Assembly (NCBI GenBank): GCA_016215315.1
Contig: JACRKG010000040.1
Coordinates: forward strand, 3,128-67,127
DNA from: Candidatus Woesearchaeota archaeon
GTDB lineage: Archaea > Nanobdellota > Nanobdellia > Woesearchaeales > ARS49
Direction of reading: 5' to 3'
Length of the DNA: 64,000 nucleotides
Shown: piece by piece, positions 9,801 through 50,485 of the stretch
How the letters are laid out: each line of letters begins with the position of its first letter
Numbering within the stretch: the first letter of the stretch is position 1
Position numbers and translations under genes: made by a program
The notes under the pieces: generated by a model
Seen by the model: the letters and a program-made list of their open reading frames with translations, nothing else
Database searches by the model: none
What the model was told of the DNA's origin: nothing

Positions 9801-12800
9801 CTTCAAAAGGCATGGACTGAGCCAGTCCTAAAATTTTTCTTGCAAGCACTTTAAAAAAAGATTCGTGGCCATAAGCAGCCCTCCTAAAAGCTAACTCAAT
9901 TTCATTATTTAATTCTTGTCTGTGCTTAAAATTTTCTTCTTCAGCTTGCATACCTTCTAATGAAGGGGGAATTTTGTAGCCTTCCTCAAAAACCTCAATA
10001 CTATCATCAGATTGAATCTGTTGAATCTTATCAATAATTTCCTCAGATGTAGCATCAGGATTGTCATTTAGAAATCTATTAATTGCTTCAATTAAATAAA
10101 TATTATAATCTGATTCAACTTCTCCAAAAAGTTGTTCTAAATGTTTTCTTGCTTCTTCAAATTGTTTTTCATTAGAAACATCTTCTGTCAATGTTGCTTT
10201 TTGTGGTTGTACTGATTCTTGCATTAAAATTGGTGGTGGAACGCTAACAGATTTTCTCATTGAAAGAATTCTGGGCGTTTCGGTTCTAAATACTGGCTTC
10301 TCAGTTCTCATGCTTGTTTCTTTGGGTTTTTCTTTTACTTGTTTATTTTTTGATCTAATGACCAATATTACTGTTTTTCCTTTGCCTGCAGTCGTAATAC
10401 TTTTTTCTGGAAGTCCTATCATTTCCTGGTAGTCTTCATTAAATGAAAAAAATAGATTTCCTTCGCTCGTAATGCCCCACTCAACAGAATCACTTCTTTT
10501 TATATCAACAGTGCTAGTTTCACCTTCTGGACTAGTTTCTGAATCGCCTTCAGACGCGTATGTTCCAGCGCCTCTTAGTCCAACAGCATGCTGTCCAAAT
10601 TCTTCATAACTCATTCCTTCCTCTTTTGGAACTTTCCAGGTGCCTTCTTTATGACCTTTTTCTATTTTCCAACTAATAACTTCAACTTCTAAATCATCAT
10701 CAAGAATGGATTCAATCCTTTCTTTCATTTTTTGAACTGCTTCTTCAAGAGGTAATTCCATTAATTCAATTAAGAAGTCTGCATTCATTAAACCGGTATT
10801 TTCCATCCACTCAATAATTCTATCAACATGATAATTGAAATTTTCTTTTTGAGGCATTCCTTCAGGAAAAAAAATGCCGACAGGAGTAATGAATGGAATT
10901 TGCAAAGTTGCAGCAATATAATCTAGCAAATCTTTAAAATTCTGCATTTCTTTAGGAGGTGTTTCTGAAGAAACACCCTTGCTGGGCGCTTTGGCGTGTT
11001 CTGACTTTAATATTTCATTAGCTGTATTGACAAAACCTTTAGCAACACCATCCTTGAAAATGGGGAAATGATTAATTTTGGGTTTGTCAGAAATATAAAA
11101 CAATTCTGTTGGTTGTTTAGTTTGGATTGAGCTAACTTCTTTAGGTTTTGTGTTAAATAATCTTTCTAATTCTCGTTTGGCTGCTTTTCTAACAACTTCT
11201 GATGTGTGCTTGTTTAGTTCTTCAAGCACTTTTTGTTTTCTGTGCTTAACATTTTCTTCATCAACTGTCCATTCTGGAAATAGATTGTTTATTAAAGAAT
11301 AATGCGCGGAATCTTCTGAAAAGTTGTTCACTAATTGCAATACTTTCTTGAAATCTTCTCCTGAACCGTATTTTAACAAATAATGAAGATTCTTTGTTCT
11401 AAAGTATTCACTTAAATTTTCATCAAAAATAAACTCTCGTAATGCTTTGAGTAAAACTTGTTTAACTTGTTCTTTAAAAGATTCAGAATTTGTTATTTTA
11501 ATAAGTTGATCCAGATTAAAAAATCCGTTACTTACCTCTTCAAGAGAACTTTCTTTTTTTATTTGTTCTTCAGAGAAAGCCAAATGACGTAAATCTTGTT
11601 CGGATGGTGGTTCAGTTGACGTAATCTTTTTTTCTTTTGTGGGTACTTCTTCAAAACTCATAAAGTGTTCAACGATTTTGCGGGCTGATTCTCTGATGCT
11701 AGATTCCTCTTCAGGATTATTTGCTATTTCTTCAAGAACTTTTATGGCTTTTTCGTCATTAACAGATAATGTATTGATGATAATTTCCATTATTGCTTCA
11801 TAACTTAAGCCAGAATTATTTACTGCCTGTTCTATTAAATTTTCATCGTAATAAATTCTTCTTAATTCTTCAATGGATTTTTCAAAAGGAAGAAATGCTA
11901 CAAAATTTATGAATGCCGCGAAGTATTTCGGCAGCAAGAATGATTTTGCTAGATCGTAGTATTTTGCAAGTTCTGTTTCTTCAGTAGTGGAGACTTTTTT
12001 CTCCAAAAGTTCAAGCAAATAATCTCTTGCACGATAAGAATTACTTCTTATGTTGGCATTTTCTCCAGTTTCACTCCAATAATTGAATGTATTGATTAGC
12101 AAGATAAGCGTTCCAACATCTAAATTTACCTCAGTTAATTGATTTTTAATTGATGAGTTTTTGAAAGGTTCTCTTGCTATTCTTTCTTTTAATAATTCTT
12201 CTAAAATATCTAATGCGGGGTTTGATCCTATTTTTGCTAATATTTTTATTGCTAATTCTGTTCCTAAATTTTTTATTATTAATCTATATAATTCAATACT
12301 GTCTTCTTCAGTTATAACAACTGAAAGATCTTGAACTATTAGCAATAATCTTTGTTCATATTCAACTCCTCCAGATTTATTGAATAATATTTCTTTTAAG
12401 AACGCAATTCTTTGTTCGTAAGGGAGTCGTATTAAATCTTTTACTAAAAGAGAGCTATCAAAATTTATTAAATTTGTAATGGCTAAGTCTCTTATTTCTT
12501 TTTCTAGTTCTTGATTTAATGCGATCTGCATCAGTTCAGGATAGCTAAAACCTTTAGCACCTCTGTGGAGTGCTTCTTTTTTAATATCAAGGTCTATTCT
12601 TTGGTCGAGGATTATTTCTTGAAAGAAACTTGGTGCTAGAGTGCCTAATGCTTCAATAATAGTTCTTTTTGCATAACTGCTTAATTGAGGATTTAAGAGT
12701 AATTCTTTAAATTTGTTAGTTCCTTCTTTGTTTAATAATGCTCTTATTGCGCTAGATCTAACCTCTAAAGGAACATTCGTATCTGGTACAACTGAGATTA

Positions 12801-15800
12801 ATAAGTCTATTAATTCTGGTGTGTCTAGAAGTTCTTTGGCGAGCCATAATTGCTCTGCAATCAGAATTTTATAGTATTTGTGCAGTTCGGGTATATTTAG
12901 TAGTTTTTTTAAAACTTCAAATTTGCCGTTTTCACTTAAAATTTGTATGATTTGATCATTTATTTCATATAAGTCCAAATCATACGGTCTTTGTTTTATG
13001 ATATATTCAAGTGTCGATTCAGCTTCTGGAAATGTTTTAATAATTTCTCTTTTCTCGTATTTATTTAGTCTGTTTGAATCTAATATTTTCTCTAATATTT
13101 CAGTCCTTTCAACAGGACTTAATTCATACTTCAAAATTTCTTCTTTAAAAAATTTGGCAAATGATCCTATGTTCTCAAAACTTTGCAAATTAATAATTAA
13201 ACCTATAAACCATGATAAGAATTTTCTATTTTCTTCTTTGTGTATTGCTGTTTTCAAGAAATCCAGGGCAGAATATGCAAAATCTGCTTTTACTTGTCTG
13301 AGCTTCATGATTTTTTTAATTAAATATAATTTATTTAAATCGCTAACATTCGGATTTTTAAATAATTCAAATAAATGGTTGACATCGTACCAAGATAGTA
13401 TTTCAATAAAAGCACCCTCGTTGCCTTTTGTTACTGGAGTTATCAGTTCTTTTTTTATTAATTCCATTAATTCAGAGTGCTCTTTTAAAAATTGTTGTTG
13501 ATTGAGAAAAATGTACAAATGAATTATTATTCTTAATTTTATTTCATCACTGACATTTGGATTGAATAATAATTCTTTCAAATCTTGAAAGTTTGTTTCA
13601 TCACCTTTCGGTCCTGCCAAAACGTATAATGCACTTATTTTATCTTCAAGAGTTTTATCAGGATCTAGAACTGTTTTTTTTGCATCAGACGATTCTTCTT
13701 CAGGAGATTTAACTCCTGATATCCAATCCCAAGTTCTTCCAAACCATCCTTTTTGTTCAGATTTTAGTATTGATGTTGGCTGTTTTGATGGTATTTCTTG
13801 TACTGGGTATTTTTGTTCTGATTTTACAACTTTGATTTGTTTTGTGATTTCTCTTTTTCCTTCTTCAGAAATTCCTGCTGGAATTTCTCCGGGTGATTCT
13901 TCAACTGATGCTTGAATTTTTTCTCCGAAATTCAATTTCAATAATTTTAGTAAGCTTTCTCTTAGTCCGATGTCTTCTATTCTTGAAATTAAATCATAGA
14001 ATTCTTGTGTTGGTGGAATTCTTTTTTGAACTATTAAATTAACTAGTTGTGCAAGTAATTGTTTTGTTTTGTTTACTAATTTTGGTTTTGGTGCGTAAGG
14101 ACTATCTGAATCTGGAAGTAAATCAGTTATTTTTTTGATTTCTGTTAACGCGTTTATTAAATTAATATATGTTTCTTGAGCTTGCTCAGTACTTAATTCT
14201 AGTCTTGATAAAGAATTAATTTGTTCTTGAATGTATTCTAATAATTTGGTGACTTGATCGTCAATTTGTTGACTATAAATGTTTGATGGAAGCGTTCCTT
14301 CCGAGTATTTCTCGTTAATATTTGCATGGCTTAATAGTGTTGTAAGGGTTTTTAGTAATTCTGAAACATTGAGATTTTCTCCTCTTTCAAGAGCGCTTAG
14401 CAGGTAATAAAATCCGAAATCTTTTAGCAAGAAATAAGCTTTTGTTGTTAGTTCAGGAGGGAATTTAGTCATTTCTAATAATTGGTAAATTAAGTAAGCC
14501 ACTCCAGGACTTACGTTTGGTAACGTTCTTTCCTTCAGTCCTATTTCGAGTTGTGAAAATAATTCGTTCAATATTTGTATTGCTTTCTCTTTTTTCCTGT
14601 CATCAGGCAAGTACTTAATTATTTCAAGTAATAAGCCACCTTCTTTTATTCTATCTTGGTATAATTTGTGTAATTCGGTGAAAATTAGTGAAGAATATGC
14701 TTCTTTCGTTTTTTCTGTCATTAAGCTATAGACTTCAAGCAAATATTTTTCTTTAGCTTTAAGAGGTATTTCTGATATTGATGTAAAAAGATCAAACAAG
14801 TCATACAAGTAGTTTTGTCTGTGTTCTTCAGATAATAGCTTTGCTAATTCTAGCAAGTCCAAGTGAAAGTCCATTCCTAAACTTCTTGTAAGTTTAAGTC
14901 TTGTGGGTTCTTTTGTGCATTCTTTATCCCCGCATTTAGTGAATTCAAGTGTTTCGTATTCAGTTATGATGATTGAAGTTATGAAATAATTATATCGTTT
15001 ATATAAATTTAATAACATTTCAAAATAAGCTTGAACATCTCTTTCGTTTGATAATAAACTTATTCGGTCTTTGTAGCTTTGCAATCTTCCAAGCAGTCTT
15101 CTTGCAACAAAAGTATTTAGTTTTTCTTCATCGGTTAGTTCTGGATCAAACTCAGTTAGTGCGGGGAATTCTCCGCTGTTTATTAATTCGTCCATTAATT
15201 TCTTTGCTTCTTCAGGATTGTTATAGAATGAATTAATCATTTCATCAATTTCATTAATTAGTCCGGTTAATTCTGCTTTGACTTTTTGTTCATCAACAGG
15301 TTTCACTTCTTCTTTTGTTACTTCTTCAGTTTTTAATACTTCAACAGGCTTTCTTACTGTGCCGATTTGTGTTTTGAGAATCCTGGCGGATTCTCCGGGT
15401 GTTTTTTTGTCTACTGATTCTTTTTCAGCTCTTTTATTTTTGATTTCTTCAAATAATTTTTGTAAACTAATAATTGATTTTATTTTTTCAAATTCATTAT
15501 TTGCTCGTTCTTTGACAAATTGTTTTTGATCATCAGGCAAAGTCTCGTGTTTTTCTAAATATTCATTGATTTTTTGAATAAATTTGTCTGCAAATTCATT
15601 CTTTTCATCGTTATTGAAACCACTGAAAGAATTAATAAAACTTGAAGCATGTCTTGATAGCCTGAAAAGATTTTCTGGACTCAAATTATTTATGTTTTCT
15701 AAAAAGTAATTGAGCGTTTTGATAGTTACTTGTTTTAGAACTGTTTCTTCTTGAGTGTCTTTTACAAGAAGATGATAATACAAGAAATTATCTAAAAAGT

Positions 15801-18800
15801 CTTTAACCTCTTCCTCGGAAAGACTTGAATAATTTATGGCTAATAAATCTTCGTAAAGCGCTAAAATTATTCCTTTTTCTTCATCGCTTGCAGTGTCTTT
15901 TATATCATATGATGTTTTGTAAAGTGCAAGAAGGAATTGCGTTTTTTCGCTTTCAGTCAAACTCGATTTGTTTTCCTTGAAAAATGCAAAAAGCTTCAAG
16001 GATGCTTCTCTGTTTAGTTCTGTTTTTTCTTCTTTGGTTAGAAAGTTTCCAAACAAAACTCGATCAATTAATTTGAATAATTCTGAGACTTTTTCAGTTG
16101 ATAAAGTTTTTTTGTTATTCTCAAAATGTTCCAATAGTTTTCTTGCAATTTTTTGTATTAATTGTCTTCCTTCTTCTGAAACGCGATTTTCTCCTGTAAC
16201 ATCAACTAATTCTCCTTTTTGTATTGTTTGGTATGTTGGCATTAAATTTACTGAAAGAATATCGTCTAGCATCTTTAAAAGTTCAAAATTGGAAAATAAT
16301 TCTTCTGTGTGATTATCAAAAAGTTCGTTTAGCGAGTTGACAATTCTTTGTGCTAATTGATCTTCATTTTCTATGTTAAATTTGTAAAGGACCGTGTTTA
16401 AGAGTTGTAGAATGCCTAAAGATTCGGATAATGTTAACTGATTTTTTTGTGTTTCATATTTGAGTGATAAATCTTCAAATATGAACATGATATTTTCAGG
16501 ATTCATTGCTTCTGGAGAAATATTTGTTATTGTTTCTAAAGCATATAAAATTAGGTGTGTCTCGCCTAAAGCTAATGTGTCTTTGTTGTCGATATAGATT
16601 CCTAAAATTGTTTCAGCAAGCAAGGACAAATTCATCTCGCTTAATTTAACACTTTCTTTAAATCTTAGAAGCTCTAAACCTTGAGCGATTGTTAGCAAAG
16701 ACGTAACCAATTCATTGAAAGGCTTATTTTTTTCACGAATAAAAACATTAATCAGATCTTTAACTGTTTTTGCTAAATCTGGTTCCACAACTTTTTCAGG
16801 GGGTGCTTCTGGAGCTGCACTTTTTAGTATTGAAGGCAAATTAAATGGTTCTCTTCCAATGCGTGTTGCCAAAAATGGAGAAATTGTTTCCAATTTATAA
16901 CTTGTCTTTTTTGGTTTGTACTTCTCGAGTTTTTCTAAATCTTTTTGCACTTCTGCATCTTTTTCATACGTGCTTCTCATTTCGAGTTTGTTAATGAAGT
17001 TGTCTAGTATTATCGTTTTTTGTTCTTCACCGAGTTCTGAGCCGGACAATATTTCTTCGAGAAGTTCAATGATTTCGTTTCTTAAATCTCTATTTTCTAT
17101 TTGATATAAAAGTTCTAAAGATTCTACAACTTCTTTTATTACTCCATCAGGGATATTTTTTATCAGAATTATCTCTTTTAGTGCTTCAAGTGTTCCCGAA
17201 GGAGGAACTTCATAATCAGTTACTACGCCGCTGTTTAAAATGAAATTTCTAATTAATTTAATTTTTTGTGCTTCACTTAAAGCAGGATCCTGCATTTGTT
17301 CTGTGAGTGTTGGAATAACCTCTAGTTTAATTTTTATTTTTTTCCACAAATAATAAAATGAGTCGATAACATCATCCACAATAGGTATTCTTTCACTAGT
17401 CAATATTCCCGGATTCTTTTTTTCAGGAACGACTTCTTGTCCTTTTAGTTTGTCAATGATCTTTTTAACTTTTTCAAAGTCTCCTTCTTGTAATGCTTTT
17501 GCTAGTTCTGCTTTTCTTAATTCTGGTAAAGAAAGTTGGGAGCTTACTGCAGGCATTCTTCCTGGACCACATTTTGCGCAATCAACACACGTACCTTTTT
17601 CATTCACGTATTTTGCTTGAGCTAAAGGACATTTTATGCATTTAACACTCTCCAGAACTGCGTTTAAGATGGCAACTGATGCTTTGACTCCTGATAAGGA
17701 AGCTCTAACATTTTGGTGTGCTGCATAATTAACAAAAGTATTACCAACCATTGCTTTAAAGATAGAACTTCTAATTTCTCCACCAATACTATTTGCGTGT
17801 GCTTTTGCTTGGTTAATTCCTTTTTTGAATTCTTCATCGTAAAATTTAACTAATTCAATTTCTTGCTTTGCCTTATCTAAATAATTATTAACTCCGGGGC
17901 ATGCTGCTTGAGGCATTGCTTCTAAGACAGAATTTAAAGAATCAACAAGCACTTGGTTGTTAACATTGTCGAATGTTTTAATGCTGTCTTGTAAATCATA
18001 TTTTAGATTTGTTGGAGTGATTTTGTTCATTGCTTTCTTTAAGTTTTCCAAATCCCTTGATTTTTGTTTTTCTCCTCTTTGTTTTGATTGTCTTATGGCA
18101 AAATCAGTGTCCCATCCTTCAGCGTCGAATAATTTAGAAATAAACTCTTCAGTGAATGGTGAAGCTCCATATACTAAGTGTTTGTAAGCATCATTCAAAT
18201 TGCCGTTTGCTTGATTGATTTGGTTAACGGCATTCATTAAAGCAATAATTGCAGAATCATCAGAACAAGTGCTCAAGTATTGTTTTGCTTTTTCTATTTC
18301 TGGGTCTAATGGAGGCAAGCATTGACTTATTTTGTTTATTTCACCAACAGCGTTGTTATCTTCTTGAACTTTTATTAATCCTTCAATGAAATTCATTACT
18401 CCGCCGTAAATTTGGTCAAATAACCATTTTTCAGGATCTTGCTGAGTTGCCTTGCCGGTTAAAAGATTCCTTGCGGAATCTTTATTTTTTTGTTCTTCTT
18501 CATATTCTTTTATTGCGTCAGCAATATCAATAATAATTGGTTTTTCTTTGTCTTTTTTCACGAAAGGCATTAGTGGCCATTGAGGTATTGGTGCAATAGG
18601 CCAAACGCCAGAACTTAAAATGTATTTACAATCGATTCCTTTTGGTGGCTGTGGTTTGTCCATGCAGTCGGGGCATTGTTTTAAGCAAACAAGTCCTTGT
18701 TGTAAGTTTTCTAAGAAATTCTGCGGGGAGTTTTCCTTCGGAAAACTAGCAACAGATTCAGTTGAAGGAACACAGTCCTGTTTTACTGGATCGCAACCGT

Positions 18801-19797
18801 TAGGGCAGTAAGTACTTCTTAATCTGTTAATTGTTCCTTCGCAACTAAAATGATTAAGAACTTTATCATTGCAATAATCGGGGTAACTTTCTGCTTTTGT
18901 TTGAGTGTTTCCTTTTTCATCGAGCCATACTTCTCCAATTTCGATATGTAATGGATTTTTTAGTTCAATGCAGTAATTGCTTTTTTTACTTTTATCGAAA
19001 CAATTATTTTCTAAAGAATTACAACCATACTGGCATTCAACAATTTCTGAACCTTTACAAGTAAACTTTAACAGTTGATTCCCTTGGCATTTATTTTCTT
19101 GTAATGTTTGTCTTCCGTCAGGGTAAGAATATTTAGCACCTTCAACAGTATCTTCACAACTTACTTGTCTGCAAGCTCCATCAAAACAAGAAAACTCAAC
19201 TTTCTTGCCTGGAGAAACTTCTATTTCAGGACAATAAATATTTTCCTCCTTAGAAAAACCTTTTTCATCACAAGAGTATTCTTTTAAAAAAAGATTTCCG
19301 TTTTCGTCAAATAAACATATATCTTCTTCACGAAATGGCTCGTTAGTAATAGTAACACCTGTGACCTGACCTGGCACGAGAGCAGGCATAATTTCATCTC
19401 CATCGCTATCAGTACATGTTGATTCTACTAGTTCTTGTGTTGCTTTTGGACAATCTTCAGGACAAGTGAGTTCGTTTTCTGCTGGTTTATTGTACACTCC
19501 TTCTCTATCACAGTATTTATCCCCGCAAAAGCCTGTAAGAATTAGTTCTTTTGGAGGAATTTTAGGAGGTAATGATGGTTGAGTGGGTTTTTCTTGAGGA
19601 ATTTCGTAGACTGGCTGTGGAGTGTAGTATTCAGTTGGTGGTTGTATTGTTTGTAATTCTTGGTTGGTGGGTGGTGGGTTGAAATCTGAAGGGAAATCAC
19701 TAACAGGTCTTCCTGTAATTGTGTAAGAAAGTGCGGTAGTTAAGGGTAGATTTATGAATAGTAAAATGACTAAAATAGCAAAAATTTTTTGATTCAT
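3823..19797 (-). CDS. Giant (5324 aa) secreted multidomain protein: signal peptide, Pro linker, Cys-rich repeats, helical/HEAT-like repeats, two transglutaminase-like domains, C-terminal HEEGH zincin-like domain
   Basis: Uninterrupted 15,975-nt ORF; SD GAGGT and TATA-like TTTATAAA upstream; GxxVCR..GHxW..DLDPT twice; HEEGH at 4411-4425. Confidence 0.9.
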   Translation of the reverse strand: MNQKIFAILVILLFINLPLTTALSYTITGRPVSDFPSDFNPPPTNQELQTIQPPTEYYTPQPVYEIPQEKPTQPSLPPKIPPKELILTGFCGDKYCDREGVYNKPAENELTCPEDCPKATQELVESTCTDSDGDEIMPALVPGQVTGVTITNEPFREEDICLFDENGNLFLKEYSCDEKGFSKEENIYCPEIEVSPGKKVEFSCFDGACRQVSCEDTVEGAKYSYPDGRQTLQENKCQGNQLLKFTCKGSEIVECQYGCNSLENNCFDKSKKSNYCIELKNPLHIEIGEVWLDEKGNTQTKAESYPDYCNDKVLNHFSCEGTINRLRSTYCPNGCDPVKQDCVPSTESVASFPKENSPQNFLENLQQGLVCLKQCPDCMDKPQPPKGIDCKYILSSGVWPIAPIPQWPLMPFVKKDKEKPIIIDIADAIKEYEEEQKNKDSARNLLTGKATQQDPEKWLFDQIYGGVMNFIEGLIKVQEDNNAVGEINKISQCLPPLDPEIEKAKQYLSTCSDDSAIIALMNAVNQINQANGNLNDAYKHLVYGASPFTEEFISKLFDAEGWDTDFAIRQSKQRGEKQKSRDLENLKKAMNKITPTNLKYDLQDSIKTFDNVNNQVLVDSLNSVLEAMPQAACPGVNNYLDKAKQEIELVKFYDEEFKKGINQAKAHANSIGGEIRSSIFKAMVGNTFVNYAAHQNVRASLSGVKASVAILNAVLESVKCIKCPLAQAKYVNEKGTCVDCAKCGPGRMPAVSSQLSLPELRKAELAKALQEGDFEKVKKIIDKLKGQEVVPEKKNPGILTSERIPIVDDVIDSFYYLWKKIKIKLEVIPTLTEQMQDPALSEAQKIKLIRNFILNSGVVTDYEVPPSGTLEALKEIILIKNIPDGVIKEVVESLELLYQIENRDLRNEIIELLEEILSGSELGEEQKTIILDNFINKLEMRSTYEKDAEVQKDLEKLEKYKPKKTSYKLETISPFLATRIGREPFNLPSILKSAAPEAPPEKVVEPDLAKTVKDLINVFIREKNKPFNELVTSLLTIAQGLELLRFKESVKLSEMNLSLLAETILGIYIDNKDTLALGETHLILYALETITNISPEAMNPENIMFIFEDLSLKYETQKNQLTLSESLGILQLLNTVLYKFNIENEDQLAQRIVNSLNELFDNHTEELFSNFELLKMLDDILSVNLMPTYQTIQKGELVDVTGENRVSEEGRQLIQKIARKLLEHFENNKKTLSTEKVSELFKLIDRVLFGNFLTKEEKTELNREASLKLFAFFKENKSSLTESEKTQFLLALYKTSYDIKDTASDEEKGIILALYEDLLAINYSSLSEEEVKDFLDNFLYYHLLVKDTQEETVLKQVTIKTLNYFLENINNLSPENLFRLSRHASSFINSFSGFNNDEKNEFADKFIQKINEYLEKHETLPDDQKQFVKERANNEFEKIKSIISLQKLFEEIKNKRAEKESVDKKTPGESARILKTQIGTVRKPVEVLKTEEVTKEEVKPVDEQKVKAELTGLINEIDEMINSFYNNPEEAKKLMDELINSGEFPALTEFDPELTDEEKLNTFVARRLLGRLQSYKDRISLLSNERDVQAYFEMLLNLYKRYNYFITSIIITEYETLEFTKCGDKECTKEPTRLKLTRSLGMDFHLDLLELAKLLSEEHRQNYLYDLFDLFTSISEIPLKAKEKYLLEVYSLMTEKTKEAYSSLIFTELHKLYQDRIKEGGLLLEIIKYLPDDRKKEKAIQILNELFSQLEIGLKERTLPNVSPGVAYLIYQLLEMTKFPPELTTKAYFLLKDFGFYYLLSALERGENLNVSELLKTLTTLLSHANINEKYSEGTLPSNIYSQQIDDQVTKLLEYIQEQINSLSRLELSTEQAQETYINLINALTEIKKITDLLPDSDSPYAPKPKLVNKTKQLLAQLVNLIVQKRIPPTQEFYDLISRIEDIGLRESLLKLLKLNFGEKIQASVEESPGEIPAGISEEGKREITKQIKVVKSEQKYPVQEIPSKQPTSILKSEQKGWFGRTWDWISGVKSPEEESSDAKKTVLDPDKTLEDKISALYVLAGPKGDETNFQDLKELLFNPNVSDEIKLRIIIHLYIFLNQQQFLKEHSELMELIKKELITPVTKGNEGAFIEILSWYDVNHLFELFKNPNVSDLNKLYLIKKIMKLRQVKADFAYSALDFLKTAIHKEENRKFLSWFIGLIINLQSFENIGSFAKFFKEEILKYELSPVERTEILEKILDSNRLNKYEKREIIKTFPEAESTLEYIIKQRPYDLDLYEINDQIIQILSENGKFEVLKKLLNIPELHKYYKILIAEQLWLAKELLDTPELIDLLISVVPDTNVPLEVRSSAIRALLNKEGTNKFKELLLNPQLSSYAKRTIIEALGTLAPSFFQEIILDQRIDLDIKKEALHRGAKGFSYPELMQIALNQELEKEIRDLAITNLINFDSSLLVKDLIRLPYEQRIAFLKEILFNKSGGVEYEQRLLLIVQDLSVVITEEDSIELYRLIIKNLGTELAIKILAKIGSNPALDILEELLKERIAREPFKNSSIKNQLTEVNLDVGTLILLINTFNYWSETGENANIRSNSYRARDYLLELLEKKVSTTEETELAKYYDLAKSFLLPKYFAAFINFVAFLPFEKSIEELRRIYYDENLIEQAVNNSGLSYEAIMEIIINTLSVNDEKAIKVLEEIANNPEEESSIRESARKIVEHFMSFEEVPTKEKKITSTEPPSEQDLRHLAFSEEQIKKESSLEEVSNGFFNLDQLIKITNSESFKEQVKQVLLKALREFIFDENLSEYFRTKNLHYLLKYGSGEDFKKVLQLVNNFSEDSAHYSLINNLFPEWTVDEENVKHRKQKVLEELNKHTSEVVRKAAKRELERLFNTKPKEVSSIQTKQPTELFYISDKPKINHFPIFKDGVAKGFVNTANEILKSEHAKAPSKGVSSETPPKEMQNFKDLLDYIAATLQIPFITPVGIFFPEGMPQKENFNYHVDRIIEWMENTGLMNADFLIELMELPLEEAVQKMKERIESILDDDLEVEVISWKIEKGHKEGTWKVPKEEGMSYEEFGQHAVGLRGAGTYASEGDSETSPEGETSTVDIKRSDSVEWGITSEGNLFFSFNEDYQEMIGLPEKSITTAGKGKTVILVIRSKNKQVKEKPKETSMRTEKPVFRTETPRILSMRKSVSVPPPILMQESVQPQKATLTEDVSNEKQFEEARKHLEQLFGEVESDYNIYLIEAINRFLNDNPDATSEEIIDKIQQIQSDDSIEVFEEGYKIPPSLEGMQAEEENFKHRQELNNEIELAFRRAAYGHESFFKVLARKILGLAQSMPFEDPYTVNEPNTKAFIEIVNNIKADNDLILVKKIYEFVTKILPIFERSDVMCRNFETLITQGKAVCRERSPLLVYALKLRGIDAKIITSNAVGEGAGHMWVTVTINVNNKLVEFDLDPTWYREFIPLHERFKGVEEERARETFEAIWKQYEGVQGKRYITEPEKASEIPKETSMRTEKPKEVSSTILKTEVPGFLAMQKPMGASIPILKQEEQKYTQTKPTLDEINRRCKEDKESLMREALERDFYKDILDLCDGKNLSEELTAKVVERLRSEYASNGSLFRHYIYQFGSKVFFSEIQKIYSEDKTKLSLSEIYFLVNFGYDDPKISESIASFLMNVSLDKELNENFRIEVQKLSINFFFYLRDYFEQKKENPDFTSVEENTYDNWAAELIKELDNKIDDVKYVLLASQIKHNPEGMLDFSVKFSVLTRNFGELSLSEILTLTEAVANHYKIFRNDSFVNNFLIQIESSEIPQENKDDIIRILITHLSLLNLQKETLPWFNPEALIESIAKNSSEAVKNYANTVLILMKKAEIVNFEENTVLIDQVLLFIKDNIALFGDKAISSEKIIDFIQQIQGEDWVTGLHSKSSLETVQDLEKRKYYSYGIFDIYKFSYEGSSFIGSLLRTLSKIITFNYEDYKNPYTPQEPLSAAFLDKIRHLESKNELELVMKIYSLAEDMVKVYELHSEFCKPMEEVLLKGNGVCRDFAALLYHALKERGIDVKYVDGFTEKITEGHIWVRVRITVENIPMEFDLDPTGYKEFFPLHPREFKIDNEQAMNYFKEQAFEQPVFLAMQKPMGAQIPILKQFAPQPPQVIPQQEEQKSNVEEQVNKLFDDFLMLLKQSPNEIYSISLFNAFNQIINQYLQDLRNNGNQEEQQKASLMIYKKFTQLRESKPEIFEVVKRNYLSLTTNLFNQMSPDDKKQFADQLFNSLLEQYKETGEQYIINNAIPSIMDFLVEKKIEKVKMILDLILTQIEGNEQNWNTYYLPELVRMLGYPAEATEKVYELVKKETSKWEYQDAGACYQMRARLITLLIHSQIENKNQEIQEINSMVVAKLKRLPENMLDRAHYGPLYNELMSDIEALPELQPLAVDLYELLMNIFFQRMKDNFQRPDDDSFKQMLYNELPSLLKLLPESMKQEKTEELFNILILLANGKRSLIEDSRQKIRQNKINELDQNKLGEYRRLLAALLNVVETLGFPKEKTETVYRLVKELFTIMSNTQVNWKMEFNEFEKMVKIIDVLGLDKHKEYPTILRTDNINSAESVGIGYMIGDWRTMIKVYIMNQIAMFGENNFFGIIEIAKLFTKISDFVLSIPPELEELNLDKKKEALSDVLNNILKAQNKFEKREIPEEFFVQLIKSINSLPLDEQTKKEFLLEYFKESLKELSTKEQTYSLLKYFLENLADEQKEFVKQSILEFIEKRYSSDNVIDMKAALYDLARIGFDDKPLLDDFFQKLSNDQILSFVSFEEFAQLFSFFNFELIMNKLVELKKQQEQTYSETTKAFIDVLYAVLNKKLNSAFEEGNKEFLTYVRFSIQSNEIELLGELIKSAWSDLSEEEKTKILEFSKQKYLPSNITQYVEFSNNLPDEVALQIIKELYENEQEFDKVINALTKERGLFENDAEGAYEYAIGIIIDELIKIKGENSVAFIKKIIKDNKDNSKIVERARKKLETLSEPRKTEDVKEGLKGQKEELKVIKKIKSTVKFPEIEQPAQKPVQKSAEILKSEEKDLTQEKTIEEKSSLEIPEPEVPSLELRPLFENFQKITEQRFEEKGGFQNLGESLAAYYFGQIFMVLNHEEGHAHVTEAYAAQYDLGINVGFGTLTTNKNMPDLGLFKGLTRQNARLTEKQYESITLGGFAASQELYCRVNEGLVQNDDGSFENRVGHWIAFTAGMDFPVHCLESYTSDVVNYGDIDYLIKQGYETDIKRALVADVIGKAPDLYWHFTKGLGMETSRPDWFSFRIPGTNFRLKISARAFIDPQNRIIAPYVEGEITSE

Positions 19798-47473: not shown

Positions 47474-48457
47474 TTACCACATTCCTTTAGGATAAGAGAA
47501 TCTTCTCAAATTTTCAAGAACTATTGAGAAAGAATATTGCTTTAAGTCTTCTTTGAAATATGCTCTTAAATCTGTGAATTGTACATCGAACTCTCTTTGA
47601 TCTTTAGCAATAATTAATATTTTGATATCATAATTTCCCAACAATCTTTCTGCATGAAGAATATTATTCTGTGTTTTCAAGAATTCAGAAATTTTTCTTC
47701 TTTTTTCATTAGAAAATTTGTTAATTTTTAAGAGCAAAACATAAGTTTGCAAACCAAACTTTTCATAATTAATAATTGCTTTAGCCTTAGTTATTACCCC
47801 TGTTGTTACAAGTTTGTTAAATCTTGAAGTGCAAGAGTCGATGCTTAAATTAGTAATTTGCGCTAGTTTAGCCATATTAATATTGGCTTTGTTTGACAAG
47901 GTGTTCAATATTCTTCTATCTTTTCCTTCCAAAACTATTTTTCCGTAATATCTCTCAGGCCATTTAGGTCTGTAATCCATATTTGCAAGAAAATTAAGTC
48001 TTTCATGCTTCATAGGAATTGTATTTGAAAGAATTTGGTTTTCAGCAATGTTATCTCCAAATTTATCATTTAACTCGTCGATAAAATCTGCCAAACCGAA
48101 CTTATCTCTGACTGCAACAGTAATAATAAAATCCCAATCACCGCTGCATCTATCAAGATATTTGATATTTTTGTGTGTTTTCAAAAAAGAACACATTTCA
48201 TTTAAAACTTCATTGGTTATTTTTTGTAATTTGAGTGTTATAACATACGTATCAAAATTGAGTTTTCTATTACTTATTACTAGATTTATTCCTGTGATAT
48301 ATTTTTCTTTTATCAGTTTTTTAATCCTATAAGCAACTAGCTCTCTGGAAAGATGGATTAATTTAGAAATTCTCGTCTGAGACAGCCTTCCATCTTCGTT
48401 AAGCAAATACAGTATTTGTTTATCCTTTTTATCTATGGATTTAACATTTTTAGGCAT
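47474..48457 (-). CDS. Tandem (double) Lrp/AsnC-family transcriptional regulator
   Basis: Two wHTH+RAM units: DKKDKQILYLLNEDGR...RIKKL...SGDWDF and KDRRILNTL...RFNKL...LGNYDI. Confidence 0.88.
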   Translation of the reverse strand: MPKNVKSIDKKDKQILYLLNEDGRLSQTRISKLIHLSRELVAYRIKKLIKEKYITGINLVISNRKLNFDTYVITLKLQKITNEVLNEMCSFLKTHKNIKYLDRCSGDWDFIITVAVRDKFGLADFIDELNDKFGDNIAENQILSNTIPMKHERLNFLANMDYRPKWPERYYGKIVLEGKDRRILNTLSNKANINMAKLAQITNLSIDSCTSRFNKLVTTGVITKAKAIINYEKFGLQTYVLLLKINKFSNEKRRKISEFLKTQNNILHAERLLGNYDIKILIIAKDQREFDVQFTDLRAYFKEDLKQYSFSIVLENLRRFSYPKGMW

Positions 48458-48524
48458 ATTATTTACTAAAATTGGACTAAATATATAAATTTTACCTAGA
48501 AAAGTAAAAAATAAAAACTTAAAT

Positions 48525-48532
48525 TTTATATT
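48525..48532 (+). promoter_or_regulatory. Candidate archaeal TATA box for the RNA array/Ro60 transcript
   Basis: TTTATATT about 26-30 nt upstream of the first stem-loop unit; an opposite-strand TATA at 48482-89 fits the Lrp gene. Confidence 0.5.
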
Positions 48533-48557
48533 AAAGCTTGCTTTTCTTTCTTTTTAT

Positions 48558-48620
48558 GAGGTGGAGGAAAGGTTACTCCGGCTTAAAACCGAACAATTAT
48601 TACCTTTTCTCTTAGTCCTC
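48558..48620 (+). ncRNA. Candidate minimal Y RNA, class 1 copy a
   Basis: GAGG/CCTC ends; 10-bp GAGGAAAGGT/ACCTTTTCTC stem; GTTACTCCGG and TAGTCCTC motifs shared with 48708-48792. Confidence 0.6.
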
Positions 48621-48634
48621 AAAACGCACACAAA

Positions 48635-48703
48635 ATGTGGGAATCATAGCCAGGTATCAAACGGATATCAAAACAATACTTGGTATCAGAGAATCCTATT
48701 CAT
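48635..48703 (+). ncRNA. Candidate structured RNA, class 2 copy a (boundaries uncertain)
   Basis: TGGGA/TCCTA and CCAGGTAT/ATACTTGG stems; GGTATCAAACGGAT and GAGAATCC motifs. Confidence 0.45.
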
Positions 48704-48707
48704 TTTC

Positions 48708-48792
48708 GAGGTGCTGGAGAAGTTACTTCGGTCAACGCGCTAATAACGCTAACGGTTCAAATCCGTGATCTTCTCCGATAGTCCTCGAGCAC
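48708..48792 (+). ncRNA. YrlA-like Y RNA with a tRNA T-arm mimic, class 1 copy b
   Basis: GTGCT/AGCAC and GGAGAAG/CTTCTCC stems; ACGG-TTCAAAT-CCGT T-arm; GCG-CTAATAA-CGC 7-nt-loop arm; directly upstream of Ro60. Confidence 0.72.
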
Positions 48793-48808
48793 AATCACCA
48801 GTCAAACT

Positions 48809-48872
48809 GACTTCAAAAGGTATCAAAGGATGTCCAGGGCTTCTTGAGAATCGCTTGATGTCACGTGAAGTC
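48809..48872 (+). ncRNA. Candidate structured RNA, class 2 copy b (boundaries uncertain)
   Basis: GACTTCA/TGAAGTC closing stem; GGTATCAAAGGAT and GAGAATCG motifs. Confidence 0.45.
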
Positions 48873-48886
48873 TTTTGATATCAAAA
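48873..48886. promoter_or_regulatory. Perfect 14-bp palindrome upstream of the Ro60 start
   Basis: TTTTGATATCAAAA. Confidence 0.4.
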
Positions 48887-48919
48887 AATTCCCCGCAATT
48901 AGTTGGGGTGGAGGTAAAA

Positions 48920-50485
48920 ATGAAAGCACAAATAAAAAAACTATTTGAAAAATATAGAATATACAAGGATGCAACACTAGTAAATTACGAAGGAAATGTT
49001 GCTTTTGAATTAAGCGATGAAGACTTGTTCATGCAAACATTACTAACAAACACTTGTTCAAATACTTTTTACGCTGATAAAGAAGAATTAGTGAAAGAAA
49101 GCATAGAAGTGCATAAAAAAATGCTTGCAAAAGATCCTAAATTTTACGCGCAAGCATTAGTTTACGCAAGAACTAAAGGATTCATGAGATTACAACCAGT
49201 GTTAGGACTAGTTTTCTTGTCAACAATAACAGATAAGAGTTATTTCAGAAGTACTTTCAAAAGAGTAGTTCTTACACCTAGCGATTTAGAATCTTTCTTA
49301 GATTTGTGCAGATCAAAATCTGTAAGACAAGGTCTTGGAAGAAGCATAAAAACTGAAATAATCAGTTATCTAAAAGAAAAATTAACTGAATACTACGCAA
49401 TAAAGTACAAGAAAGCACTAAAAGATGCAGTGAAATTAAGCAGGCCAAATGCTAAAGCATTTGGTGACGTTAAAAAAGCAATTGTCGAATACATAATGAG
49501 AGGAGAACTTACTGAAGATCTTAAGCAAGCAAAAGCAGTGGAAAAATTAAAGACAATGAATCCCGCAAATGATGAAACAGAAATTATAAAATTAATAGAA
49601 GAAGGAAGACTACCTTACGAAGCAGTAGTTGGAGCAATAACACCAACACAAAAAATCTGGGAAGCACTATTGTACCAAATGCCAATATTTGCAACGCTAA
49701 GACAAATTAACACAATGGCTAGAAATAAAGTATTTGAGTCAGAAAAAGCAGTAAATTATGTTTGCGAGAAATTACAACACGTTGAAGAAAGCAAAATATT
49801 ACCTTTTAGATTTTATACAGCGATAAATAGTTTAGATATTTCAGTGCCTAACAAAGTAAAGGATGCAATAGTTGATGCTCTAGAAAAAAGCTTTGTCAAC
49901 ATGCCAGAAATAAAAGGAAAAACATGCATAGCTCCTGATGTAAGTGGAAGTATGTGTTCAGGAAAACCTAGAAATGTAGACATAGCAGGAATATTCAGTG
50001 CCGCATTAATGAAGAAAACAAAAGATTGTATGATATTACCAGTAGACACAGCAATACACCCACACACTTGCAGCACTAGAGACAGTATAATGAGTAACGC
50101 AGAAAAGTTAGCAAAACTAGGTGGCGGAGGTACAGAATTAGACCTTCCCATAATTTACTTGCTAGACAATAAAATAAAAGTAGACAACTACATATGCATT
50201 ACTGACAGCGAGGAATGGTACAGTGATAAAAGATACTTTTGGAACACAAAATCAAGCACAGATAGAGGTTTTTATCAAGCACTAAGAGACTACAAAAATA
50301 AAATCAATCCAAACCTGAAAGTATTTTACATAAGAATAGCACCTTACAAGCATAGCACTGCTCCAGCAAAAGAACCAAACTTGTACAACATAGAAGGCTG
50401 GTCAAACACAGTACTAGACTTTATATCAACAATCAGTAACTTAGGAAAAGACCAAATCGATGCAGTGAAGGCAGTGGAGATATAG
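48920..50485 (+). CDS. rsr: Ro60/TROVE-domain RNA-binding protein with C-terminal vWA (MIDAS) domain
   Basis: NTFYA..EEL, DPKFYAQALVYARTKGFMR, GLGRSIK, WEALLYQMP..ATLRQ, ILPFRF, DVSGSM, TDSE, IEGWS; GGAGGT SD before ATG 48920 (521 aa). Confidence 0.92.
   Translation: MKAQIKKLFEKYRIYKDATLVNYEGNVAFELSDEDLFMQTLLTNTCSNTFYADKEELVKESIEVHKKMLAKDPKFYAQALVYARTKGFMRLQPVLGLVFLSTITDKSYFRSTFKRVVLTPSDLESFLDLCRSKSVRQGLGRSIKTEIISYLKEKLTEYYAIKYKKALKDAVKLSRPNAKAFGDVKKAIVEYIMRGELTEDLKQAKAVEKLKTMNPANDETEIIKLIEEGRLPYEAVVGAITPTQKIWEALLYQMPIFATLRQINTMARNKVFESEKAVNYVCEKLQHVEESKILPFRFYTAINSLDISVPNKVKDAIVDALEKSFVNMPEIKGKTCIAPDVSGSMCSGKPRNVDIAGIFSAALMKKTKDCMILPVDTAIHPHTCSTRDSIMSNAEKLAKLGGGGTELDLPIIYLLDNKIKVDNYICITDSEEWYSDKRYFWNTKSSTDRGFYQALRDYKNKINPNLKVFYIRIAPYKHSTAPAKEPNLYNIEGWSNTVLDFISTISNLGKDQIDAVKAVEI

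What the first reader, a model, noticed from the sequence alone, without database searches (positions are those of the whole stretch)
48708..48792. Minimal tRNA-mimic Y RNA: T-arm plus 7-nt-loop arm, no D-arm or acceptor end
Seen: terminal helices GTGCT/AGCAC and GGAGAAG/CTTCTCC separated by an internal loop containing GTCC. The apical domain has GCG-CTAATAA-CGC followed by a canonical T-arm, ACGG-TTCAAAT-CCGT (48752-66). Established: YrlA RNAs carry a tRNA-like domain with T and D arms on a Ro-binding stem. Inference: this is a reduced YrlA-type mimic that keeps the T-loop and an anticodon-like loop, possibly a decoy or substrate for tRNA-modifying or cleaving enzymes.
Basis: partly seen in the sequence, partly recalled or inferred. 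Interest (0 to 1): 0.8.

Follow-up and report, generated by a model that had tools for sequence, protein, structure and literature searches.

The report
Minimal T-arm Y RNA beside Ro60
This is a small non-coding RNA gene, one of a tandem pair, just upstream of a Ro60-type RNA quality-control gene in a DPANN archaeon; it is a cut-down relative of the tRNA-mimicking bacterial Y RNAs, belongs to a Y RNA class that public RNA models miss, and would extend Ro60-Y RNA particles to Archaea.

Summary
The T-arm ACGG-UUCAAAU-CCGU (48752-48766) is the only such hairpin on either strand of the 64-kb window. A paralogous RNA lies 150 nt further upstream.

Both RNAs share a core (RGG-UG, 10-bp helix, GUUACUUCG ... 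NNAGU-CCY) that recurs next to rsr genes in archaeal-type contigs, Chloroflexi and unassigned metagenomic contigs. A covariance model built without the window finds exactly these two sites in the window (E 4e-7 and 5e-4). Covariation across 44 distinct copies is strong.

Full-size relatives carry the YrlA layout: V hairpin, T arm, closed acceptor, D arm. The window RNA keeps only the V hairpin and the T arm.

It is not a formal member of Rfam YrlA: there is no hit, no GNCGAA motif, no D arm and no acceptor stem.

Verdict: a real, reduced Y RNA of a new YrlA-related variant. Ro60 binding and any decoy role remain untested.

The parts
48705..48789 (+). RNA-B, the finding: a Y RNA of the GGUG/UUACUUCG class, with ends as defined by the covariance model
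   Evidence: R1, built without the window, gives 36.9 bits and E 4e-7. R2 gives 58.4 bits.
48706..48711 (+). Helix 1, 5' strand UCGAGG. It pairs with 48783-48788 (CCUCGA). The GG belongs to the invariant GGUG.
   Evidence: Present in the minimum-free-energy structure. Helix 1 has 6 of 7 pairs with double-sided changes across 44 distinct copies.
48712..48714 (+). 5' side of the asymmetric internal loop (UG + C). UG is near-invariant in the family.
   Evidence: GGUG in 39 of 46 copies; alignments.
48715..48722 (+). Helix 2, 5' strand UGGAGAAG. It pairs with 48770-48777 (CUUCUCCG).
   Evidence: All 10 helix-2 pairs show double-sided changes, with 91% of cells paired.
48722..48731 (+). Conserved GUUACUUCG(G) motif. 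It contains the YrlA 'YUAY' (UUAC 48723-48726).
   Evidence: GUUACUUCG is exact in 30 of 46 copies and most of its positions are near-invariant. It lies 8 nt (31 of 46) or 9 nt (10 of 46) after GGUG. YUAY is described in Chen 2014 and the UA kink in Wang 2018.
48737..48749 (+). V-position hairpin GCG-CUAAUAA-CGC, with an anticodon-loop-like 7-nt loop (CU NNN AA)
   Evidence: CU-initiated 7-nt loops number 21 against 5.9 +/- 2.2 in shuffles.
48752..48766 (+). T-arm ACGG-UUCAAAU-CCGU. It has a G53-C61-type closing pair and U54 U55 C56 R57 A58.
   Evidence: It is the only such hairpin in the window. T-arms with different, compensated stems occur in L240, L195, L133, L180, L139, L006, L003, L002 and L201.
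48778..48782 (+). 3' side of the internal loop, AUAGU (family consensus NNAGU / NAAY)
   Evidence: repeat D1.
48555..48623 (+). RNA-A, a paralogous short Y RNA with no T-arm. Helix 1 is 48557-48561 with 48617-48621, helix 2 is 48564-48573 with 48602-48611, and the hairpin is CGG-CUUAAAA-CCG.
   Evidence: R1 24.8 bits, E 5e-4. R2 51.9 bits. Fold z = -2.46.
48524..48532 (+). TATA-box-like TTTTATATT about 25-30 nt upstream of RNA-A; candidate archaeal promoter for the Y RNA(-rsr) unit
   Evidence: Read from the sequence. The same TTTTATAT(T/A) lies at a similar distance upstream of the first Y RNA in L001 and L240. Its function is inferred.
48920..50485 (+). rsr, a Ro60 ortholog (TROVE ring + vWA/MIDAS) and the presumed protein partner
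   Evidence: Pfam vWA_Ro60 7e-15 and TROVE 5e-12. PDB Ro60 9nen 5e-20, 1yvp 3e-17, phage 9kop 2e-13, D. radiodurans Rsr 2nvo 6e-13. DxSxS is invariant in the alignment.
47474..48457 (-). Divergent double-HTH Lrp/AsnC-type regulator, a conserved neighbour of the Y RNA-rsr unit
   Evidence: Pfam. It is 46% identical to the syntenic gene in L001. A regulatory role is inferred.

Best explanation
The finding is the second of two tandem Y RNA genes (RNA-A 48555-48623, RNA-B 48705-48789). Both are transcribed towards the Ro60/Rsr gene (48920-50485) of a Woesearchaeota-like DPANN archaeon.

Shown by computation:
- The 5' and 3' ends of RNA-B pair into a two-helix stem. Helix 1 is UCGAGG/CCUCGA. An asymmetric internal loop (UGC on the 5' side, AUAGU on the 3' side) follows. 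Helix 2 is UGGAGAAG/CUUCUCCG, and it is followed by the near-invariant GUUACUUCG.
- This core recurs, with abundant compensatory changes, in at least 50 distinct copies beside rsr genes and always on the rsr strand.
- The apical part is a cut-down tRNA-like module. It keeps the hairpin at the YrlA 'V' position, whose loop CUAAUAA resembles an anticodon loop, and a canonical T-arm. The closed acceptor stem and D-arm found in full-size relatives are absent.

Inferred:
- The stem (GGUG and UUACUUCG, one helical turn apart) is the docking site for the adjacent Ro60.
- As in bacterial Ro60-Y RNA particles, the RNA gates or tethers Ro60.
- The exposed T-loop is the handle for a partner that recognises the tRNA elbow, or a substrate for T-loop-modifying enzymes.
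- The pair is probably transcribed from the TATA-like box at 48524-48532 and then processed.
For: Context:
- The Ro60 ortholog lies 131 nt downstream on the same strand.
- The genome is archaeal: L31e and S19e are present, and the nearest named S19e proteins are Woesearchaeota and Nanoarchaeia.

Family membership without circularity:
- Model R1 was built from 9 cores taken from other loci. It hits only 48705-48789 (36.9 bits, E 4e-7) and 48555-48623 (24.8 bits, E 5e-4) in 128 kb of searched sequence.
- With filters off, R2 finds the same two sites and nothing else with E below 0.8.

The family:
- 47 hits in 26 loci, plus 12 more in rsr loci, all on the rsr strand.
- 89.4% of cells are paired against 61% in shuffles. 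16 of 17 pairs have double-sided changes. The covariation score is 0.745, against 0.19 in shuffles and at most 0.16 when partners are slid.
- GGUG and GUUACUUCG are near-invariant at fixed spacing.

Link to YrlA:
- Full-size members L003:3599-3730 and L002:3505-3633 hit RF02553 at 42.5 and 40.7 bits.
- The UUAC equals the YUAY motif.

T-arm:
- It is in the minimum-free-energy structure and is unique in the window.
- It recurs with compensated stems in ortholog locus L240 (AUGG-UUCGAUU-CCAU and AUGAA-UUCAAAU-UUCAU) and in many other loci.

Synteny: the Lrp-like regulator, two Y RNAs and rsr are conserved in L001.
Against: - There are no expression or binding data.
- The motif proposed for Ro60 recognition in known bacterial and phage Y RNAs (GNCGAA or CGAA) is absent, so Ro60 docking rests on position and conservation only.
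- Rfam YrlA gives no hit, even at E <= 10.
- Both Y RNAs of the closest ortholog locus, L001, lack a T-arm. The T-arm is therefore dispensable cargo rather than a defining part.
- The T stem has only 4 bp, the centroid keeps 2 bp, and the whole-element fold z-score is only -1.83.
- Without a D-loop the T-loop has no canonical partner.
- The 7-nt loop and the T-loop start 16 nt apart, not the tRNA-like 22 nt. Three-dimensional tRNA mimicry is doubtful.
- From my own knowledge, not tested here: archaea lack PNPase, the one known bacterial effector, so the tethered partner is unknown.
- The covariation statistics come from an alignment that was fitted to the model.
Confidence: 0.8

Rival explanations
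1. The two structures are cis-acting parts of the rsr mRNA leader rather than stable trans-acting RNAs. For example, they could be Ro60 autoregulatory binding sites or a stabilising 5' structure.
For: They lie on the same strand directly upstream of rsr. In L001 the second element ends only about 30 nt before the rsr start, with no room for a promoter. Only one TATA-like box is evident, upstream of RNA-A. The rsr ribosome-binding region (48904-48917) repeats the 5' end of RNA-A.
Against: In L243/L244 the same elements lie downstream of rsr. In L240 two copies lie upstream of an RNA ligase gene rather than rsr. Arrays of 5 to 9 copies do not fit a leader. The paper on bacterial YrlA writes the Salmonella locus as an operon, rsr-yrlB-rtcBA; that the Y RNAs are cut out of the operon transcript and act in trans is my recollection, not something I read here. 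The two readings are therefore not exclusive.
Confidence: 0.1
2. The RNA acts mainly as a decoy or sacrificial substrate for enzymes that recognise tRNA T-loops or anticodon loops (modification enzymes or tRNA-cleaving nucleases), with Ro60 secondary.
For: The T-loop consensus is intact, and the CUAAUAA loop has the C32-U33-NNN-A37-A38 pattern. CU-type 7-nt loops and T-loops are both enriched in the family. Relatives sit beside RNA ligase genes and tRNA arrays on contigs rich in small ORFs and on phage contigs. Bacterial YrlA is modified by TruB and DusA.
Against: The invariant part of the family is the stem, not the tRNA-like cargo. Many members, including RNA-A and both L001 RNAs, carry no T-arm at all. 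The 3-bp stem and the compressed spacing make it a poor anticodon-arm mimic. No nuclease or defence gene is adjacent in the window.
Confidence: 0.07
3. It is a decayed tRNA gene fragment (the 3' half of a tRNA) that happens to lie upstream of rsr, with no function of its own.
For: An anticodon-like hairpin followed by a T-arm is the order found in a tRNA 3' half. Y RNAs are thought to derive from tRNAs.
Against: The flanking stem matches a covarying family core at E 4e-7. ARAGORN and the Rfam tRNA model give no hit. A paralog with the same stem and no T-arm lies 150 nt away.
Confidence: 0.02
4. These are chance hairpins in an AT-rich intergenic region.
For: The fold z-score is only -1.83.
Confidence: 0.01

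Closest known systems
YrlA (Rfam RF02553; S. Typhimurium, M. smegmatis, mycobacteriophages; Chen et al. 2014, PMC4201824; Wang et al. 2018, bioRxiv 10.1101/312249)
   Same: It is encoded next to rsr on the same strand. The 5' and 3' ends form the stem. It has the conserved YUAY (UUAC here) at the top of the stem, then a V hairpin, then a T-arm with a tRNA T-loop. Full-size members of the same class (L003, L002, L049) also have the closed acceptor stem, the UA linker and the D-arm, and they score 36-42 bits on RF02553.
   Different: There is no GNCGAA(N)G; the class has RGG-UG instead. There is no D-arm and no acceptor stem in the window RNA. RF02553 gives no hit. My class model does not hit the YrlA region of mycobacteriophage Rizal or the Streptomyces phage locus. 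The host is an archaeon.
YrlB (Salmonella) and Yrl1/Yrl2 of Thermus phage phiLo (PMC12135203): short Y RNAs without a tRNA-like domain
   Same: They are small stem-loop Y RNAs encoded in tandem with a larger one next to rsr. This matches RNA-A and the two L001 RNAs.
   Different: Those RNAs carry the CGAA motif in an internal bulge, which was shown to contribute to binding in phiLo. The window RNAs do not carry it.
Deinococcus radiodurans Yrn1
   Same: It is a Y RNA with a T-arm but an incomplete tRNA-like domain, and with a hairpin described as anticodon-arm-like. It is the nearest precedent for a partial mimic.
   Different: Yrn1 keeps both strands of the metazoan-type Ro-binding helix. Its arm order relative to the 5' end differs, its loop has 6 nt, and it tethers PNPase. 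From my own knowledge, archaea have no PNPase.
Metazoan Y RNAs (RF00019)
   Same: They have a terminal stem with an internal loop or bulge as the Ro60 site, and a variable apical module.
   Different: They have no tRNA-like elements and use the GGUCCGA helix. There is no Rfam hit here.
Circularly permuted tRNA genes (algae, one archaeon; discussed)
   Same: Full-size relatives have all four tRNA arms in permuted order with a closed acceptor stem. The spacing from the 7-nt loop to the T-loop is 22 nt, as in tRNA.
   Different: The window RNA lacks the acceptor and D arms and cannot mature into a tRNA. No bulge-helix-bulge motif was identified.

Membership tests
YrlA (RF02553 / Chen 2014) | Encoded within about 4 kb of a Ro60 ortholog and on the same strand | tested here: met
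   RNA-B ends at 48789 and rsr starts at 48920, both on the + strand.
YrlA (RF02553 / Chen 2014) | Scores at or above the Rfam gathering threshold (69 bits) | tested here: not met
   No YrlA hit at gathering, nor at E <= 10 on 48200-49000. As a control, a mycobacteriophage YrlA region scores only 36 bits, so the threshold is strict.
YrlA (RF02553 / Chen 2014) | 5' GNCGAAN0-1G motif (proposed Ro60 contact) | tested here: not met
   The 5' arm reads UCGAGGUGCUGGAGAAG, with no CGAA. The class has GGUG at that position.
YrlA (RF02553 / Chen 2014) | Conserved YUAY at the top of the stem or start of the V region | tested here: met
   UUAC at 48723-48726. U, A and C are near-invariant in 46 copies.
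YrlA (RF02553 / Chen 2014) | T-arm with the tRNA T-loop consensus | tested here: met
   ACGG-UUCAAAU-CCGT at 48752-48766. The stem has 4 bp rather than 5.
YrlA (RF02553 / Chen 2014) | D-arm with conserved GG | tested here: not met
   No D-arm motif in RNA-B. Only 3 nt separate the T-arm from the 3' strand of helix 2.
YrlA (RF02553 / Chen 2014) | [quoted passage not shown] | tested here: not met
   Absent. It is present in relatives L003, L002 and L049.
YrlA (RF02553 / Chen 2014) | tRNA-type modifications (pseudouridine 55, dihydrouridine) | not testable with these tools
   Needs RNA from cells or in-vitro enzyme assays.
Y RNA (functional definition) | Bound by Ro60 | not testable with these tools
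   Needs a gel-shift assay or co-purification.
Y RNA (functional definition) | The 5' and 3' ends pair into a stem with a conserved internal loop, and the apical module is variable | tested here: met
   Covariation in both helices. The apical inserts vary by roughly 100 nt in length and have unrelated sequences.
New class: GGUG-N8-GUUACUUCG Y RNAs (defined here) | Significant score with a covariance model built without the window | tested here: met
   R1: 36.9 bits, E 4e-7. These are the only two hits in the window.
tRNA | Cloverleaf recognised by ARAGORN or Rfam RF00005 | tested here: not met
Ro60/Rsr (protein partner) | TROVE ring plus vWA domain with MIDAS DxSxS | tested here: met

The most novel reading that the evidence does not exclude
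These are the first Y RNAs recognised in Archaea. They define a separate, widespread Y RNA class with its own Ro60-docking consensus (RGG-UG, 10-bp helix, UUACUUCG / NNAGU-CCY), in which pieces of tRNA are interchangeable cargo. The natural deletion series runs from a full permuted tRNA, to T arm plus acceptor, to V hairpin plus T arm, to T arm alone, to none. It marks the T-loop as the minimal functional cargo: a handle or decoy for factors that read the tRNA elbow. The tandem arrays of up to nine copies on archaeal-type contigs that look like mobile elements, next to RNA ligases, would then be tools in a host-element conflict over tRNA integrity.
Probability: 0.3. Interest if true: 0.75.

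Novelty: new variant of a known kind. Interest (0 to 1): 0.6.

Why it matters
Ro60-Y RNA particles are well studied in animals and in a few bacteria. In the literature I could search, archaeal elements (Asgard viruses, Borgs) are credited only with the protein, never with a Y RNA.

If this RNA binds its Ro60, four things follow:
1. Y RNAs exist in all three domains.
2. Ro60 can be docked through a consensus other than GGUCCGA or GNCGAA. This bears on how the ring recognises RNA.
3. Rfam's YrlA model misses a large class found in DPANN archaea, Chloroflexi and contigs that look like mobile elements, so Y RNAs are under-annotated.
4. The reduced forms give a natural experiment on which part of the tRNA-like domain matters. 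Wang et al. 2018 expect an unknown effector that reads the tRNA elbow formed by the T and D arms.

The haloarchaeal virus HGTV-1, which has a named haloarchaeal host (Halogranum sp. SS5-1), has a TROVE gene with a weak candidate of this class just upstream. It offers a possible system to test this.

Tried and rejected
- A DNA pattern scan of viral contigs with GGTG-N8-11-AGTTACTTCG returned mostly chance hits, because the pattern has only 14 specified bases. Only a few loci were real (L049, L064, L071, L073, L108, L120), and the pattern was not used for counting.
- The single-protein scan of genome contigs found nothing. The alignment-based scan gave 32 loci, but the closest (L127, 61% identity) is cut inside the gene.
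- MAFFT alignment of whole elements put the 3' arms out of register. I therefore seeded the model with equal-length core-only sequences and let Infernal realign the real sequences. One search was a wasted test alignment.
- With default filters, R1 missed long members, including one of its own seeds. R2 recovered more. Family counts are lower bounds and are biased towards short copies.
- A conserved link between rsr and the downstream nucleotidyltransferase was rejected: there is no homolog at that position in L001.
- I looked for a positive control for Rfam YrlA at the gathering threshold in 39 related loci and found none. Even mycobacteriophage Rizal reaches only 36 bits.
- The tRNA-remnant reading was rejected.
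- Candidate CPR loci (L142-L149) gave no model hits, so CPR bacteria are not claimed.
- The reviews by Sim et al. 2020 and Boccitto and Wolin 2019 were not available. I cannot exclude that they mention archaeal Y RNAs.

Full report
**1. The observation.** RNAfold gives -25.7 kcal/mol with z = -1.83. The predicted structure has:
- an outer helix UUCGAGG/CCUCGAG;
- a second helix UGGAGAAG/CUUCUCCG;
- a hairpin GCG-CUAAUAA-CGC (48737-48749);
- a hairpin ACGG-UUCAAAU-CCGU (48752-48766).

The last hairpin meets the T-arm consensus: a G-C closing pair and U54 U55 C56 R57 A58. It is the only G-C-closed hairpin with a stem of at least 4 bp and a UUCRANN loop on either strand of the 64-kb window, whereas shuffled windows give 0.54. 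ARAGORN finds no tRNA in the window. Rfam finds nothing at gathering thresholds, and nothing relevant at E <= 10 around the site.

Its equivalent occurs in 7 of 43 relatives, no more often than chance (6.7 +/- 2.2).

**2.
- The element lies in a 463-nt intergenic region between a divergent double-HTH Lrp/AsnC-type regulator (47474-48457, minus strand) and a 521-aa protein (48920-50485, plus strand). That protein has TROVE and Ro60-vWA domains. It matches solved Ro60 structures from human or Xenopus, a Thermus phage and Deinococcus.
- The window is about 31% G+C and encodes ribosomal proteins L31e and S19e.
- The nearest named S19e relatives are Candidatus Woesearchaeota and Nanoarchaeia. The host is therefore a DPANN-type archaeon.
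- 150 nt upstream of the finding lies a paralog, RNA-A (48555-48623). It has the same ends but a short apical part.
- GAGGTG-N8-GTTACTYCGG occurs at exactly these two places in the window, with none in 100 shuffles.

**3. Relatives.** I collected loci encoding relatives of the Rsr protein.
- L001 (62% identical Rsr, groundwater metagenome) has the same layout: Lrp-like regulator (46% identity), two short RNAs, then rsr.
- L240 (63% identical) has three copies and an RNA ligase gene between them and rsr.
- L006, L002 and L003 (44-46% identical Rsr) are contigs rich in small ORFs. On L003 I also saw a thermosome gene fragment and an intron-containing tRNA, which point to an archaeal origin. They carry tandem arrays of 5 (L006), at least 3 (L002) and at least 9 (L003) copies upstream of rsr.
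- Chloroflexi genomes and many unassigned metagenomic contigs carry one to three copies.

All copies share the same layout: a 5' strand of helix 1 ending in GG; then UG; a 10-nt strand of helix 2 ending in GU; UACUUCG; a variable insert whose length differs by roughly 100 nt between copies; the 3' strand of helix 2 starting with AC; a 3-6-nt loop (often NNAGU); and CC plus the rest of helix 1.

**4. Statistical test of membership.** I built a covariance model (R1) from nine core-only sequences taken from other loci, so the window was left out.
- Over the whole window on both strands, R1 reports only 48705-48789 (36.9 bits, E 4e-7) and 48555-48623 (24.8 bits, E 5e-4).
- A second model (R2), trained on real hits, finds 47 copies in 26 of 100 sources and 12 more in further rsr loci. 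All are on the rsr strand. A 13th, weak partial match (22.5 bits, E 0.02) lies in L064, a contig that came from the pattern scan and is not an rsr locus.
- With filters off, R2 still finds only the same two sites in the window with E below 0.8.

On the 44 distinct sequences, 89.4% of cells are standard pairs against 61% in shuffles. Sixteen of 17 pairs show changes on both sides. The covariation score is 0.745, against 0.19 in shuffles (0 of 500 reach it) and at most 0.16 when partners are slid. The alignment was fitted to the model, which favours the structure. However, each copy has a different helix-2 sequence, so the signal is not subtle.

GGUG is present in 39 of 46 copies. GUUACUUCG is exact in 30 of 46, with most of its positions near-invariant. 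The spacing between the two is 8 nt in 31 copies and 9 nt in 10.

**5. Relation to YrlA.** Chen et al. 2014 define YrlA by these features: location next to rsr; a 5' GNCGAAN0-1G; a conserved YUAY that begins the V region; an optional V stem-loop; a T arm; a closed acceptor-like stem; and a D arm. Wang et al. 2018 show that the UA of YUAY makes a kink and that the T/D elbow is the conserved face.
- Full-size members of the present class have exactly this order. An example is L049:3002-3131: GUUAC, UUCGA-CUGCUAA-UCGAG, AGGUC, GUAGG-UUCGAGU-CCUAC, closed acceptor, UA, GCUC-AGUUGGGA-GAGC.
- L003:3599-3730 and L002:3505-3633 hit RF02553 at 42.5 and 40.7 bits, below the 69-bit threshold. In that alignment GGGUG sits where YrlA has GGCGA.
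- None of 39 related loci reaches the threshold.
- The YrlA region of mycobacteriophage Rizal (GCCGA ... GGUUACCUC ... T, acceptor and D arms) scores 36 bits on RF02553 and is not hit by R2.

The class is therefore homologous to YrlA in its upper part and differs in the presumed Ro60-binding part.

**6. What RNA-B keeps.** After GUUACUUCGG there are five unpaired bases, then the hairpin GCG-CUAAUAA-CGC, then UA, then the T-arm, then GAU, then the 3' strand of helix 2. There is no acceptor stem and no D arm.
- The 7-nt-loop hairpin occupies the YrlA V position.
- Across 51 distinct members, 7-nt-loop hairpins whose loop starts with CU number 21, against 5.9 +/- 2.2 in shuffled inserts. Those whose loop starts with UU, mostly T-loops, number 28 against 5.5 +/- 2.5.
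- In full-size members the two loops start 22 nt apart, which is the tRNA distance from position 32 to position 54. In RNA-B they start 16 nt apart, so the module is compressed.
- Reduced forms are common. T-arm only: L195:1738-1808, L133:255-330 and L180:2280-2381. T arm plus one further hairpin: L006:1110-1214 and L240:1026-1125. No tRNA-like element at all: RNA-A, L001, L192 and others.
- T stems differ between copies with full compensation (ACGG, GUGGG, AUUGG, UUCAG, UCAGG, GGGGG, GCGGG, AUGG, GUAGG and others), while the loop stays UUCRANY.

Homologous loci conserve UUCRANY in L240 and many others, but not in L001.

**7. Mechanism.**
- *Shown by computation:* the gene's position, the covarying stem, the invariant motifs, the T-arm, and the adjacent Ro60 gene.
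- *Inferred from the established behaviour of Ro60-Y RNA particles* (Chen 2014, Wang 2018 and the phiLo study): the stem docks Ro60, the RNA gates or tethers the ring, and the apical module contacts a partner. The effector is open. From my own knowledge rather than any test here, archaea have no PNPase, the one known bacterial partner. RNA ligase genes next to rsr in L240 and L003 echo the bacterial rsr-rtcB link.
- *Promoter:* a TATA-like TTTTATATT lies about 25-30 nt upstream of RNA-A. The same box stands at a similar distance before the first Y RNA in L001 and L240. No such box precedes RNA-B, so co-transcription followed by processing is likely. This too is inference.

**8. Novelty.** In the searchable literature I found Ro60 or TROVE proteins reported in Asgard viruses and Borgs, but no archaeal Y RNA. 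One paper states that Ro60 occurs in all three domains, citing reviews I could not read. Rfam release 15 has no family that detects these RNAs. I rate this as a new variant of a known kind: a real Y RNA, YrlA-related, with a different docking consensus, a reduced cargo, and an archaeal host.

Noticed in passing
window 48555-48623 (+): A second, shorter Y RNA (RNA-A) of the same class, with no T-arm and a CGG-CUUAAAA-CCG hairpin directly after the UUAC motif. Together with RNA-B it forms a tandem pair, as YrlB and YrlA do in Salmonella.
   Followed up: yes
window 48904-48917 compared with 48557-48570: The rsr leader and ribosome-binding region TGGGGTGGAGGTAA repeats the 5' end of RNA-A, TGAGGTGGAGGAAA (86% identical). 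L240 has the same GGGGTGGAGGTAAAAA before its rsr. It could be only a Shine-Dalgarno sequence, or a Ro60 autoregulatory site.
   Followed up: partly
window 48652-48661 and 48818-48827; 48664-48673 and 48877-48886: AGGTATCAAA lies exactly 32 nt after the 3' arm of each Y RNA. GATATCAAAA also occurs twice, the second time inside the palindrome TTTTGATATCAAAA just upstream of rsr. This may be a relic of duplication, a promoter, or an operator for the divergent Lrp-like regulator. It remains unexplained.
   Followed up: partly
window 3823-19797 (-): A single ORF of 5324 aa, the kind of giant protein gene often seen in DPANN and CPR genomes.
   Followed up: no
L003 2820-3730; L006 930-1540; L002 3295-3631: Tandem arrays of at least 9, 5 and at least 3 Y RNAs of this class, with different apical inserts, upstream of rsr. 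The contigs are rich in small ORFs. L003 has a thermosome gene fragment, an intron-containing tRNA and an RNA ligase gene.
   Followed up: partly
L003 3599-3730; L002 3503-3631; L049 3002-3131: Full-size members contain all four tRNA arms in circularly permuted order. They include a 5-bp/7-nt arm UUCGA-CUGCUAA-UCGAG and an AGGUC 'variable loop' before the T arm, with tRNA-exact spacing of 22 nt. What YrlA papers call the V arm looks like a true anticodon arm here.
   Followed up: partly
L240 1254-2309 and 2429-3969: An ATP-dependent RNA ligase gene (PF09414) lies between the Y RNAs and rsr. The rsr itself is called as two ORFs (165 + 322 aa), so it may be split or frameshifted.
   Followed up: no
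L245 (Halovirus HGTV-1, KC292026) about 3845-3935, upstream of ORF129 (TROVE): A haloarchaeal virus with a named host (Halogranum sp. SS5-1) encodes a Ro60 homolog (26.6% identity). Just upstream it has CGGUG-N12-AUACUUCA ... CCCGACUUCC-AAUUUCAA-CCG, a weak candidate of the same class (R2 11.5 bits, E 0.39).
   Followed up: partly
L120 10491-10874 and flanks: A phage contig carries a GOLLD RNA (226 bits), about 17 tRNA genes, a small SRP RNA hit and a Y RNA-like element with a very long acceptor stem.
   Followed up: no
L243 1815-2543 (and L244): In a high-G+C locus, three class members lie downstream of rsr rather than upstream, interleaved with a small ORF.
   Followed up: no
L246 (Mycobacterium phage Rizal) 3500-3760: The YrlA region of a Bxz1-type mycobacteriophage scores only 36 bits on RF02553 (gathering threshold 69). 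The Rfam model and threshold therefore under-detect even this described phage group.
   Followed up: partly
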